Source of the DNA: Escherichia coli
Lineage (GTDB): Bacteria; Pseudomonadota; Gammaproteobacteria; Enterobacterales; Enterobacteriaceae
Assembly: GCF_003790525.1 (NCBI RefSeq)
Contig: NZ_CP033635.1
Reading direction: 5' to 3' (one strand)
DNA: 64,000 nt
Shown here: one piece after another, positions 50,201-53,200 of the stretch
Layout: every line of letters begins with the position of its first letter
Position numbering within the stretch: position 1 is the stretch's first letter
Made by a program: the position numbers

Positions 50201-53200
50201 GCATCGGTGGATTTGATTATCGCATCAACGGTAGTTATTCTGATCAGGGCAATCGTGATACGCCGGATGGACGTCTGCCGAATACCAACTATCGTAACAA
50301 TAGTCAGGGTGTATGGTTGGGTTATAACTCCGGAAACCATCGTTTTGGCCTCTCGCTTGATCGCTACAGACTCGCGACACAAACTTACTATGAGGATCCA
50401 GACGGAAGTTATGAGGCATTTAGTGTCAAAATACCTAAACTTGAACGAGAGAAAGTTGGGGTATTCTATGACACAGACGTGGACGGTGACTATCTAAAAA
50501 AATTCATTTCGACGCGTATGAGCAGACCATCCAGCGCCAATTTGCCAACGAAGTAAAAACGACACAGCCTGTTCCCAGTCCGATGATTCAGGCTCTGACC
50601 GTTCATAACAAGACTGACACCCATGATAAGCAATACACTCAGGCGGTCACATTGCAGAGTCACTTTTCGCTGCCTGCTAATAATGAACTTGTTACCGGTG
50701 CACAGTACAAACAAGACAGGGTCAACCAAAGGTCCGGTGGCATGACCTCAAGCAAATCTCTGACCGGCTTCATTAATAAGGAAACACGAACTCGCTCCTA
50801 TTATGAGTCAGAGCAAAGTACAGTCTCACTATTCGCACAAAATGACTGGCAATTCGCCGATCACTGGACATGGACAATGGGAGTTCGCCAATACTGGCTT
50901 TCTTCAAAGTTGACGCGTGGTGACGGAGTATCATATACCGCAGGCATTATAAGCGATACCTCTCTTGCCAGAGAGTCTGCGAGTGATCACGAAATGGTAA
51001 CATCTACAAGCCTGCGCTATTCAGGTTTCGATAACCTGGAGTTACGCGCTGCGTTCGCGCAAGGCTACGTATTTCCCACACTCTCCCAGCTTTTTATGCA
51101 GACATCTGCGGGCGGCAGTGTCACATACGGAAATCCTGATCTTAAGGCTGAACACTCCAATAACTTTGAATTAGGTGCACGATATAATGGTAATCAGTGG
51201 CTGATTGACAGCGCAGTTTACTACTCAGAAGCTAAAGATTATATTGCAAGTCTGATCTGTGATGGCAGTATAGTTTGCAATGGTAACACCAACTCCTCCC
51301 GTAGTAGCTACTATTATTATGACAATATTGATCGGGCAAAAACATGGGGACTGGAAATAAGTGCAGAATATAATGGCTGGGTTTTCTCGCCATATATCAG
51401 TGGCAATTTAATTCGTCGGCAATATGAAACTTCAACATTAAAAACAACTAATACAGGTGAACCAGCGATAAACGGACGTATAGGGCTGAAACATACTCTT
51501 GTGATGGGTCAGGCCAACATAATCTCTGATGTTTTTATTCGTGCTGCCTCTAGTGCAAAAGATGACAGTAACGGTACCGAAACAAATATTCCGGGCTGGG
51601 CCACTCTCAACTTTGCAGTAAATACAGAATTCGGTAACGAGGATCAGTACCGGATTAACCTGGCACTCAATAACCTGACAGACAAACGCTACCGTACAGC
51701 ACATGAAACTATTCCTGCAGCAGGTTTTAATGCAGCTATAGGTTTTGTATGGAATTTCTGATGACAAAAACAATCGTTATGGAATTCTTTGTCCTGATCT
51801 GCCCGCTTTGCGGGCAGGCTAACGAACGTATTGTGTTTGTTGAAGGTTTTTCGTCGTTGTTTTCCATCTGTAGATGAATATTTATTCTTCCCGCCAGCAT
51901 GATTCTATACTCATTGCTACGACAATGACTTATAAAGCTGGCTACTGAGCCTATACCTTTGTAATTCAAAAGTGATATCAGTTCACAACGCAATACTATT
52001 TTTAGATTATTTACTCTCCCCCAGATACTGAATCAATGGATAATACCTTTTGATTTATCCCGACGCGGAAGAAGGTGGAATAAATATTCTCCTTCTATTG
52101 TCCCCTACTCCAACTATCATATTTTACAATATCAACGAACCGTCCATGCCGGGCTGAAATTCTCTTCCTGAAACAGCTCTGTCAGCCCGCTAATCTGTTT
52201 GAGCCTCAGCACTTCATCCTGATCCATGCCCAACTCTGTGCCAATACGCTCATCTGTCCAGCCCAGACGCGAAAGGTCCCTGACAATGTCAGACATTGAC
52301 GTTATCTGGTGTTTTCCCCTGGCACGGTTATGCCGTATGGTCGCGGCAATACGTGATGCCTATCCCTTTCTCTCTGGATTAATACAGGCCACTGGCAGCC
52401 AGCCCTTCAGACGTTTTCTCGTATCCGCTTTCCTGCCCAGCAACTGACGATGAAAACCATCCACTACCAGATAATGCTCCTTCTCTTCCGAAACCACCAC
52501 AGGCTGCGTGAATCCATCCTGCTCCAGTGAATGTTTAAGCAGTTTTTTTTCACTGGAAGACATGACATTGGGATTGTAATCGTTGGCCACCACCTCATTC
52601 GCTTTCACCCACAACACACAGTCCACAGGCTCCTGTGCAAAAGGGCTGACCTCATGCAACACCCTGCGCAGATGATTAAGGGCTCGTATGGTCTCTTCTT
52701 CAGATCGTTCCTGACTGAAGTACTGTCGAATCATGTTGCTCAATACTTCCACCTCAGGTGTCACAGAATCCCCCATTCCTTCCTCCTTTCTTTCATACGC
52801 TGCAGATAACGTTCATAGTGCCGGGGTTTGTTCGGACTGAAGGAGAGGGTCCGACACCAGAAATCATTCTTTATGAGTGTCTTACAGATACGTCGCCAGG
52901 ACGGGATATCCCGGCTCCCCAGGTCATTCTCCTGTTCATCCGGGATGTCATCCGGGAAGCCCCGCGTCTGATACCAGCGCAGGTAGACAGCAATTTTATT
53001 ACGGTAATGTTCTGCCGTTCTTTCCGGCATCACATCCAGCAGGAACATCGCATAGCTACGCCAGGTATGATGAGGTGGCTTCGTGATACGCTTACGCAGG
53101 GCAAAATAGGCACCGCTCTCATTGGCATAAAGCGCCCCGCTGGCAGCACCCGACACCCGCTCACACATCCTGGCCCAGGTTTCCGGCTCCAGAACATGGT

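What the first reader, a model, noticed from the sequence alone, without database searches (positions are those of the whole stretch)
52360..52362. In-frame amber codon splits the ParB-like gene between its nuclease motif and arginine-rich C-terminal region
The reading frame is continuous across a single TAG, 138 codons before and 75 after, so this is a point nonsense change rather than an indel. The truncated product would keep the ParB motif but lose the IRHNRARGKH patch and C-terminal helix.
Basis: seen in the sequence. Interest (0 to 1): 0.45.

Follow-up and report, generated by a model that had tools for sequence, protein, structure and literature searches.

The report
Clone-specific nonsense mutation in ibrB-like gene
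A single C-to-T change has turned glutamine codon 139 of an E. coli IbrB-like (ParB-fold) regulator gene into a stop codon; this is an ordinary pseudogene shared by one clone and already flagged "internal stop" in RefSeq.

Summary
On the minus strand, window 52132-52776 is a 214-codon IbrB-like gene. It is interrupted by one TAG at 52360-52362, with 138 codons before it and 75 after.

- **Origin of the stop:** the nearest intact allele (strain RIVM_C037884) differs by exactly one base, so the change is CAG (Gln139) to TAG.
- **Not an error:** the same TAG is found in 60 of 5,426 complete E. coli genomes from many hosts and laboratories, including ST354 strain SMS-3-5. The exact 138-aa product is called on at least 1,000 public contigs.
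- **Already annotated:** RefSeq/PGAP marks this gene as a pseudogene with "internal stop".
- **What is lost:** relatives are 211-214 aa long. The region after the stop is the best conserved part and holds family-invariant N150 and G154. A confident model (pLDDT 90) matches the ParB/Noc/KorB N-domain plus HTH. The stop removes the last N-domain helix (RHNRARG, aligned to ParB box III) and the whole three-helix HTH-like region.
- **No rescue seen:** no suppressor tRNA is present in the window, and serU (window) and glnV/glnX (checked in SMS-3-5) have wild-type anticodons.
- **Context:** the adjacent TonB-dependent receptor gene is frameshifted, and gene remnants flank the ibrA-like partner gene, so the islet is decaying.

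Verdict: a recent loss-of-function pseudogene. Low interest.

The parts
52360..52362 (-). In-frame amber codon TAG at codon 139 of the IbrB-like gene. Intact alleles have CAG (Gln). The mutated base is window 52362.
52132..52776 (-). Whole IbrB-like gene (214 codons plus TGA), a pseudogene because of the internal stop.
   Evidence: It aligns without gaps to intact alleles. PGAP flags the same gene as pseudo 'internal stop' in SMS-3-5 and CS6L.
52363..52776 (-). The 138 codons that can still be translated. They cover two N-terminal helices and the core of the ParB-type N-domain, including DGFHR.
   Evidence: The exact 138-aa product is called on at least 1,000 public contigs.
52135..52359 (-). 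The 75 codons after the stop, no longer translated. They encode helix 139-151, the RHNRARG motif and three helices (158-201) with an HTH-like sequence.
52447..52461 (-). Codons 106-110, DGFHR, the ParB/Srx-type motif. D106, G107 and R110 are invariant in 67 relatives. It aligns to GERR (box II) of Spo0J.
52309..52338 (-). Codons 147-156, IRHNRARGKH. N150 and G154 are invariant and A152 and R153 nearly so. It aligns to ENLQR (box III) of Spo0J and lies downstream of the stop.
52174..52305 (-). Codons 158-201, three predicted helices forming the HTH-like DNA-binding region. It lies downstream of the stop.
52597..52599 (-). Codon 60, AAT (Asn). More distant intact alleles have GAT (Asp). This substitution predates the stop, because the intact N60/Q139 allele exists.
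52782..52787 (-). AGGAGG Shine-Dalgarno sequence, which ends 5 nt upstream of the ibrB-like ATG and lies inside the 3' end of the ibrA-like gene.
   Evidence: Read directly from the sequence.
52761..53993 (-). Intact ibrA-like partner gene (410 aa; PAPS_reduct plus DUF3440). Its 3' end overlaps the ibrB-like start by 16 nt.

Best explanation
This is a recent, clonally inherited loss-of-function mutation. A C-to-T transition changed codon 139 of the IbrB-like gene from CAG (Gln) to TAG.

Inferred steps:
- Translation, which starts at a strong ribosome-binding site inside the end of the ibrA-like gene, stops after residue 138.
- The 138-residue product keeps the beta-strand core and the DGFHR motif of the ParB-type N-domain.
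- It lacks the last helix of that domain, which carries the family-invariant Asn150 and Gly154 of the RHNRARG motif (the counterpart of ParB box III). It also lacks the entire helix-turn-helix-like region, which would contact DNA.
- A ParB-fold regulator without these parts should not bind its target, so the two-gene IbrA/IbrB module is probably inactive, even though the ibrA-like gene is still intact.

Shown: the mutation arose on an allele that already carried D60N. The chromosome already had a frameshifted neighbouring TonB-dependent receptor gene. This fits stepwise decay of a small accessory islet in the lineage that includes ST354 strain SMS-3-5.
For: **The lesion**
- There is one TAG in an otherwise continuous frame.
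- The intact N60/Q139 allele in RIVM_C037884 differs only at this codon. The intact D60/Q139 allele in TUM14771 differs at two bases.
- Over 6.7 kb the window differs from TUM14771 by only 6 SNPs and one 1-nt deletion, so the event is recent. There are no differences at all downstream of the stop.

**It is real and clonal**
- An exact 81-nt probe across the TAG matches 60 of 5,426 complete genomes. These come from humans, poultry, pigs, dogs, mink, a pangolin, water and soil.
- The exact 138-aa product is on at least 1,000 contigs.
- SMS-3-5 is ST354 (PMC9174282).

**The lost part matters**
- Homologues are 211-214 aa long with 100% coverage.
- 47 of 76 residues after the stop are invariant, against 61 of 138 before it, in 13 relatives.
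- In 67 relatives down to about 35% identity, N150 and G154 are invariant. A152, R153, G183, E188, R191 and G197 are nearly so.
- The AlphaFold model has pLDDT 90.3 and places helices 139-151, 158-170, 175-182 and 186-201 after the stop.
- Foldseek matches Noc, ParB and KorB (N-domain plus HTH) over 145-171 columns, with E-values down to 1e-7.
- hhalign to Spo0J gives 92% probability. It pairs DGFHR with GERR, RHNRARG with ENLQRE, and the HTH regions with each other.

**No rescue found**
- The five tRNAs in the window are Ser(CGA) and four Asn(GTT).
- glnV and glnX of SMS-3-5 carry CTG.
- The supE44 allele was seen only in K-12 laboratory strains among the 60 listed of 155 hits.

**Existing annotation:** PGAP marks it 'internal stop'.
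Against: - No expression or protein data were available, so loss of function is inferred, not shown.
- The ibrA-like partner is still intact, and the truncated allele persists in a widespread clone. Neither fact excludes a residual or altered role for the 138-residue fragment.
- Only part of the genome of one related strain was checked for suppressor tRNAs, because only a 64-kb window of the source genome was available.
It is supported by the independent Foldseek and PDB-profile matches.
Confidence: 0.9

Rival explanations
1. Sequencing or assembly error: the real genome has CAG and the gene is intact.
For: None specific. A single-base difference from the nearest intact allele is the kind of change an error could produce.
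Against: The identical TAG is present in 60 independently sequenced complete genomes from many laboratories, hosts and countries. The exact 138-aa product is called on at least 1,000 contigs. The carriers listed also share the neighbouring frameshift, as expected for common descent.
Confidence: 0.01
2. The amber codon is read through, by a suppressor tRNA or by programmed recoding, so a full-length protein is still made.
For: supE-type suppression would restore exactly the ancestral Gln. The frame after the stop is still perfectly intact.
Against: - No tRNA with a CUA anticodon is in the window, and serU (the supD locus) is wild type.
- glnV and glnX of SMS-3-5 are wild type.
- The supE44 allele was seen only in K-12 laboratory strains among the rows listed.
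- The stop is not conserved. Sister alleles and all homologues have a sense codon, which argues against programmed recoding.
- The intact downstream frame is explained by the youth of the mutation: there are no substitutions there relative to the intact allele.
Confidence: 0.02
3. The 138-residue N-terminal fragment is functional in its own right (for example nucleotide binding, interaction with the IbrA-like protein, or a dominant-negative effect on paralogues such as YbdM). Alternatively, the two halves are made as separate polypeptides that reassemble.
For: - The ibrA-like gene remains intact and overlaps the start of the fragment.
- The fragment keeps the invariant D106, G107 and R110.
- The allele persists in a successful clone.
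- An ATG (Met161, window 52294-52296) opens a 54-codon ORF covering the HTH-like region.
Against: - The fragment ends exactly where the last helix of the N-domain starts, and it lacks invariant N150 and G154, so the fold is incomplete.
- No Shine-Dalgarno sequence lies at a usable distance before Met161. The nearest AGGGGA is 18 nt upstream (read).
- No family member in the searches is naturally split or ends at this point, apart from contig-end fragments.
- Persistence is expected for any neutral young pseudogene.
Confidence: 0.05
4. Loss of the gene was positively selected in this clone, for example to silence an IbrAB-driven programme, rather than arising by neutral decay.
For: - Two adjacent accessory genes are inactivated in the same lineage.
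- A paralogous IbrB-like gene at another locus is frameshifted in strain EV36.
Against: - In complete genomes the stop occurs on only one haplotype (N60 with TAG).
- The D60-with-TAG haplotype occurs only in metagenome or draft contigs, two of which (L012, L015) mix B2-type and F-type SNPs. It is absent from all 5,426 complete genomes. So there is no evidence that this lesion arose more than once.
- The flanks are full of gene remnants, as expected for general decay.
- The frequency of pseudogenes in other lineages was not measured.
Confidence: 0.07

Closest known systems
IbrB of the IbrAB island of E. coli ECOR-9 (Sandt, Hopper and Hill 2002, J Bacteriol 184:3640, cited in PMC7649339)
   Same: - The gene pair is the same: a PAPS-reductase/DUF3440 gene followed by an overlapping ParB-like gene of about 212-214 codons.
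- RefSeq names the product 'IbrB-like domain-containing protein'.
- Relatives at other E. coli loci are 82-90% identical.
   Different: - This copy sits at a chromosomal islet between cobU and argH, not in the ECOR-9 island.
- It is interrupted by a stop codon.
- The only reported function of IbrAB, activation of prophage eib genes, was not tested here, and the original paper could not be read.
YbdM/YbdN of E. coli K-12 (ParB-like nuclease domain protein and PAPS reductase/DUF3440 protein; ybdNM operon, PMC9068703)
   Same: It has the same two-gene architecture and the same domain labels.
   Different: It is a different, core-genome locus regulated by YbdO/CitR. Its function is also unknown. 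The sequence relationship to the window gene was not measured here.
ParB, Noc and KorB (ParB N-terminal domain followed by an HTH DNA-binding domain)
   Same: - The predicted fold matches both domains over 145-171 columns, with E-values down to 1e-7.
- The family profile hits ParB and Noc N-domains in the PDB with E-values of 1e-6 to 1e-7.
- Box II and box III positions and the HTH align.
   Different: - Sequence identity is only 13-20%.
- The motif is DGFHR rather than GERRxR.
- There are two extra N-terminal helices.
- There is no C-terminal dimerisation domain, because the protein ends at residue 214.
- No parA partner or parS site is known.
- CTP binding is untested.
PHROG 2159 'ParB-like partition protein' with PHROG 2302 'phosphoadenosine phosphosulfate reductase' (phage-borne pairs)
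   Same: The IbrB-like protein matches PHROG 2159 over its full length (E = 2e-87). The IbrA-like protein matches PHROG 2302 (E = 6e-83).
   Different: Here the pair is in a chromosomal islet with no phage genes around it. Function is unknown in phages too.

Membership tests
Pseudogene by nonsense mutation | A single in-frame stop interrupts an ORF that is otherwise colinear with full-length homologues. | tested here: met
   645 nt align without gaps, with one TAG at codon 139.
Pseudogene by nonsense mutation | Orthologues at the same locus carry a sense codon at that position. | tested here: met
   CAG in RIVM_C037884, TUM14771, M1/5 and CU568-3. In the 81-nt probe search, 215 genomes have 1-3 mismatches and 60 match exactly.
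Pseudogene by nonsense mutation | The region downstream of the stop is conserved in the family, so the stop is not a natural end. | tested here: met
Pseudogene by nonsense mutation | No compensating suppressor tRNA. | tested here: inconclusive
   None in the 64-kb window. The supE locus is wild type in the related strain SMS-3-5. The rest of the source genome was not available.
Pseudogene by nonsense mutation | Loss of protein function. | not testable with these tools
   Needs expression and complementation experiments.
ParB/Srx superfamily (Pfam ParB_N, PF02195) | ParB N-terminal domain fold. | tested here: met
   Foldseek against the PDB. The family profile matched against PDB sequences. For Pfam ParB_N, the window protein alone is weak (E = 0.004), but 29 of 67 relatives match at E <= 0.001.
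ParB/Srx superfamily (Pfam ParB_N, PF02195) | Conserved Gly-x-x-Arg motif (box II position). | tested here: met
   D106, G107 and R110 are invariant and align to GERR. They lie upstream of the stop.
Canonical ParB partition proteins and CTP clamps | Box III-type Asn/Arg motif and an HTH DNA-binding domain in the expressed product. | tested here: not met
   Both are encoded in intact alleles, but in the window they lie after the TAG.
Canonical ParB partition proteins and CTP clamps | C-terminal dimerisation domain, and a parA partner with parS sites. | tested here: not met
   Even the intact protein ends at residue 214, just after the HTH-like region. The neighbours are an ibrA-like gene and a TonB-dependent receptor gene, with no parA. 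parS sites were not searched for.
Canonical ParB partition proteins and CTP clamps | CTP binding and hydrolysis. | not testable with these tools
   This is a biochemical property.
IbrAB module | ParB-like gene immediately downstream of, and overlapping, a PAPS_reduct/DUF3440 gene. | tested here: met
   16-nt overlap. The upstream product has PAPS_reduct and DUF3440 domains.
IbrAB module | Activates expression of prophage eib genes. | not testable with these tools
   Known only from Sandt et al. 2002, as cited in PMC7649339.
Known anti-phage defence systems (PADLOC: Dnd, BREX and others) | Proteins match models of the system's components. | tested here: not met
   The IbrB-like protein has no hit. 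The IbrA-like protein has only weak partial hits to BrxP (E = 8e-6) and DndC (E = 1e-3).
Programmed stop-codon recoding | The stop codon is conserved among homologues. | tested here: not met
   The TAG is confined to one E. coli haplotype. All other homologues have a sense codon: Q, E, L or R.

The most novel reading that the evidence does not exclude
The truncated 138-residue ParB-core fragment, still translationally coupled to an intact IbrA-like enzyme, may have been retained in the ST354-related clone because it has a residual or altered activity. It could, for example, bind the IbrA-like protein or a nucleotide without binding DNA, or interfere with paralogous IbrB/YbdM proteins. Alternatively, its loss may have been selected. 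Either case would give a natural separation-of-function allele for an uncharacterised but widespread two-gene module.
Probability: 0.06. Interest if true: 0.35.

Novelty: already known. Interest (0 to 1): 0.1.

Why it matters
It matters little beyond bookkeeping.
- It is a reliable single-base marker for one E. coli lineage: 60 of 5,426 complete genomes, including ST354 strain SMS-3-5.
- It shows that the IbrAB-type module next to cobU is dispensable in that lineage.
- The analysis adds a modest point about the family. IbrB-like proteins are predicted with high confidence to have a ParB N-domain plus an HTH. The most conserved residues (RHNRARG and the HTH-like region) lie in the part removed here. 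Anyone studying IbrAB or YbdNM could therefore use this natural allele as a presumed null.

Tried and rejected
- **Structure, first attempt:** the model built from 13 close homologues was unusable (pLDDT 52). It was replaced by a model from a 67-sequence alignment (pLDDT 90).
- **Single-sequence domain searches:** Pfam, NCBIfam and the PDB gave only weak ParB hits on residues 50-116. A family profile was needed.
- **Defence systems:** PADLOC gave nothing for the IbrB-like protein.
- **Literature:** searches for IbrAB returned mostly irrelevant papers, such as 'iBRB' for the blood-retina barrier. Sandt et al. 2002 (PMC135156) is not held.
- **Source strain:** I first assumed the window was SMS-3-5 itself. 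This is wrong. Only window 25632-63999 matches it (99.97%), and SMS-3-5 has a prophage at serU that the window lacks.
- **Recurrent mutation:** I considered recurrence because a D60-with-TAG product exists on 48 contigs. I rejected it as unsupported. All places examined are metagenome contigs, two of them (L012, L015) with mixed B2-type and F-type SNPs. No complete genome has that haplotype.
- **Dcm hotspot:** I considered deamination at a Dcm site. The context GGGACAGGCA contains no CCWGG (read).
- **Re-initiation at Met161:** no usable ribosome-binding site is present (read).

Full report
**1. The observation**

The gene lies on the minus strand. The + strand reads 'cta' at 52360-52362, which is TAG on the coding strand. 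Translating window 52120-52776 on the minus strand gives 138 residues, one stop, 75 residues and then TGA, all in one frame. The list of open reading frames (ORFs) shows the 138-aa ORF at 52360..52776(-). It also shows a 410-aa ORF at 52761..53993(-) that overlaps the start of the gene by 16 nt. A canonical AGGAGG sequence ends 5 nt upstream of the ATG (read).

**2. What the locus is**

- A 2.1-kb stretch around the site is 100% identical to E. coli SMS-3-5 and to many other E. coli chromosomes.
- In SMS-3-5, RefSeq annotates this gene (ECSMS35_RS05695) as 'IbrB-like domain-containing protein', pseudogene, 'internal stop'. It annotates the upstream gene as an intact 'phosphoadenosine phosphosulfate reductase'.
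- Strain CS6L has the same 'internal stop' flag under another product name.
- The window is not SMS-3-5 itself. Only 25632-63999 matches it (99.97%). SMS-3-5 carries a prophage next to serU that the window lacks. Other TAG carriers match the window 100% across that junction.

**3. The ancestral state and the order of events**

- TUM14771 has the same gene neighbourhood and an intact 214-codon gene. It differs from the window gene at two bases: CAG to TAG at codon 139 and GAT to AAT at codon 60.
- Over 6.7 kb the two strains differ by only 6 SNPs and one 1-nt deletion.
- RIVM_C037884 has an intact gene with N60 and Q139, so it is one base away from the window allele. Its neighbouring TonB-dependent receptor gene is already frameshifted.
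- The order is therefore D60N and the receptor frameshift first, then Q139 to stop.
- There are no substitutions downstream of the stop relative to the intact alleles, so the lesion is young.

**4. It is real, and how common it is**

- An 81-nt probe centred on the TAG matches exactly in 60 of 5,426 complete E. coli genomes. It matches with 1-3 mismatches in 215 more.
- The 60 carriers come from humans, chickens, ducks, a goose, pigs, dogs, a mink, a pangolin, river water, waste water and soil, and from many laboratories. A sequencing error is therefore excluded.
- An exact-sequence look-up finds the 138-aa product on at least 1,000 public contigs. The two intact variants (N60 and D60) are also each on at least 1,000.
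- SMS-3-5 is ST354 (PMC9174282). The other carriers were not typed here.
- A fourth combination, D60 with the stop, exists on 48 contigs. The places examined are all metagenome contigs, and two of them (L012, L015) mix B2-type and F-type SNPs. No complete genome has that haplotype; the best match has one mismatch. I read these contigs as chimeric assemblies or rare recombinants, not as evidence that the mutation arose more than once.

**5. What the stop removes**

- The 120 best database relatives are almost all 211-214 aa long and cover 100% of the query.
- In 13 relatives at 73-90% identity, 47 of the 76 positions from 139 onward are invariant, against 61 of the first 138.
- An exhaustive search found 1,857 relatives. 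Those at 36-58% identity still align to about residue 212.
- In a 67-sequence alignment the invariant residues are N68, N70, L80, S83, D106, G107, R110, P128, N150 and G154. A152, R153, G183, E188, R191 and G197 are nearly invariant. Two of the ten invariant residues and six of the fifteen nearly invariant ones therefore lie after the stop.
- The AlphaFold model built on that alignment is confident (pLDDT 90.3, pTM 0.82). Residue 139 is the first residue of helix 139-151, which is followed by helices 158-170, 175-182 and 186-201.
- Foldseek against the PDB returns Noc, ParB and KorB, some crystallised with CDP or a CTP analogue. These are structures of an N-domain plus an HTH. The alignments span 145-171 columns with E-values down to 1e-7.
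- The family profile also hits ParB and Noc N-domains by sequence, with E-values of 1e-6 to 1e-7.
- hhalign of the family against B. subtilis Spo0J gives 92% probability. It pairs DGFHR with GERR (box II), RHNRARG with ENLQRE (box III), and 'WTDERIGTELGMDQDEV--LRL' with the Spo0J HTH.
- Taken together, the stop leaves an incomplete N-domain and deletes the whole HTH-like, presumed DNA-binding, region.

**6. Could the stop be bypassed?**

- The five tRNAs in the window are Ser(CGA), which is serU (the supD locus) with its wild-type anticodon, and four Asn(GTT).
- In SMS-3-5 the two tRNA-Gln(CUG) genes, glnV and glnX, have the wild-type CTG anticodon.
- A probe for the supE44 allele matches exactly in 155 genomes. 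The 60 listed are all K-12 laboratory derivatives.
- The stop is not conserved in any homologue, which argues against programmed recoding.
- Re-initiation at Met161 is unlikely, because no Shine-Dalgarno sequence lies at a usable distance (read).
- The rest of the source genome could not be scanned.

**7. The partner gene and the family**

- The upstream 410-aa protein has split PAPS_reduct matches, a PP-loop match and DUF3440. It also has weak NCBIfam hits to CysH- and CysD-type models.
- In PHROGs the two proteins match 'ParB-like partition protein' (phrog_2159, full length, E = 2e-87) and 'phosphoadenosine phosphosulfate reductase' (phrog_2302, E = 6e-83).
- PADLOC has no model for the IbrB-like protein and gives only weak BrxP and DndC hits for the IbrA-like protein.
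- The only functional report is that ibrAB of ECOR-9 enhances expression of prophage eib genes (Sandt et al. 2002, as cited in PMC7649339).
- The K-12 paralogues ybdNM are an operon repressed by YbdO/CitR, and their function is unknown (PMC9068703).

**8. Context of decay**

- The convergent neighbour is a 715-aa TonB-dependent receptor gene whose best NCBIfam matches are haem/haemoglobin-receptor subfamilies.
- In the window this gene is frameshifted by loss of one A from an A8 run.
- Between the ibrA-like gene and argH lie four short gene remnants. Next to cobU lie remnants of an IS4 transposase gene and a cobalamin-biosynthesis gene.
- The 7-A receptor allele is present in 129 complete genomes. 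Of the 60 rows listed, 30 are TAG carriers and 30 are strains with CAG.

**9. Verdict**

The feature is a recent, clonally inherited nonsense pseudogene in a decaying accessory islet. Public annotation already flags it. Nothing points to recoding, suppression or recurrent selection. Interest is low.

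Noticed in passing
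window 49615-51761 (+); A-run at 50496-50502: The TonB-dependent receptor gene convergent with the ibrB-like gene is frameshifted by loss of one A from an A8 run (two ORFs, 49588..50556 and 50583..51761). Its best NCBIfam matches are haem/haemoglobin-receptor subfamilies, below the curated cut-off. The 7-A allele is exact in 129 complete genomes, including strains with an intact ibrB-like gene and an E. coli Nissle-derived strain. It is therefore either older than the TAG or recurrent at the homopolymer. From memory, unverified: this may be the UPEC haem receptor gene hma (c2482).
   Followed up: partly
window about 53995-54957 (-): Four short gene remnants lie between the ibrA-like gene and argH. 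They are annotated in SMS-3-5 as thioesterase (N-terminal 41 codons), ClbP/serine hydrolase, a hypothetical protein and galactonate dehydratase. B2-type strains (M1/5, CU568-3) instead have PIG-L deacetylase, glycosyltransferase and acetyltransferase genes there. The two islet versions therefore share only the receptor gene and the ibrAB-like pair.
   Followed up: no
window about 48095-48435 (-): Remnants of an IS4-family transposase gene and a cobalamin-biosynthesis gene lie just beside cobU. They may mark the edge of the inserted islet.
   Followed up: no
window 1-25631 versus SMS-3-5 (L009): SMS-3-5 has a lambdoid prophage inserted next to serU. It has a frameshifted integrase gene and four phage tRNA genes: Met/Ile(CAT), Lys, Thr and Gly. 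The window lacks this prophage and continues with core genes (hprS, msrP, hchA). The window therefore comes from another member of the TAG-carrying clade, not from SMS-3-5.
   Followed up: partly
L010-L015 (metagenome contigs, ENA): These contigs encode a 138-aa product with D60 plus the TAG. That haplotype is absent from all 5,426 complete genomes. L012 and L015 mix B2-type and F-type SNPs within 645 nt. The likely causes are chimeric assembly of co-occurring E. coli strains or rare recombinants.
   Followed up: yes
L005 3016-3661 (strain EV36, another locus next to a perC-family regulator gene): A paralogous IbrB-like gene (about 87% identical) is annotated as frameshifted, while its ibrA-like partner is intact. 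This is a second, independent inactivation of an IbrB-type gene. How often this happens across E. coli was not measured.
   Followed up: no
column 'places_in_record': Eight of the 60 TAG carriers, including SMS-3-5, have a second place in the genome that matches the 81-nt probe. This suggests a second ibrB-like copy that could compensate for the loss. Its location and integrity were not examined.
   Followed up: no
public protein records: Annotation of the same lesion is inconsistent. PGAP marks it as a pseudogene with 'internal stop'. Several GenBank and other submissions (for example BBR92976.1) instead list the 138-aa fragment as an ordinary 'hypothetical protein' or 'ParB-like chromosome segregation protein Spo0J'.
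   Followed up: partly
window 26729-44514: Four tRNA-Asn(GTT) genes lie within 18 kb, interleaved with yeeJ, yeeO, cbl, nac and ldtA. This is the usual asnT/W/U/V region. No pathogenicity island is inserted at any of them in this window, according to the SMS-3-5 annotation.
   Followed up: no
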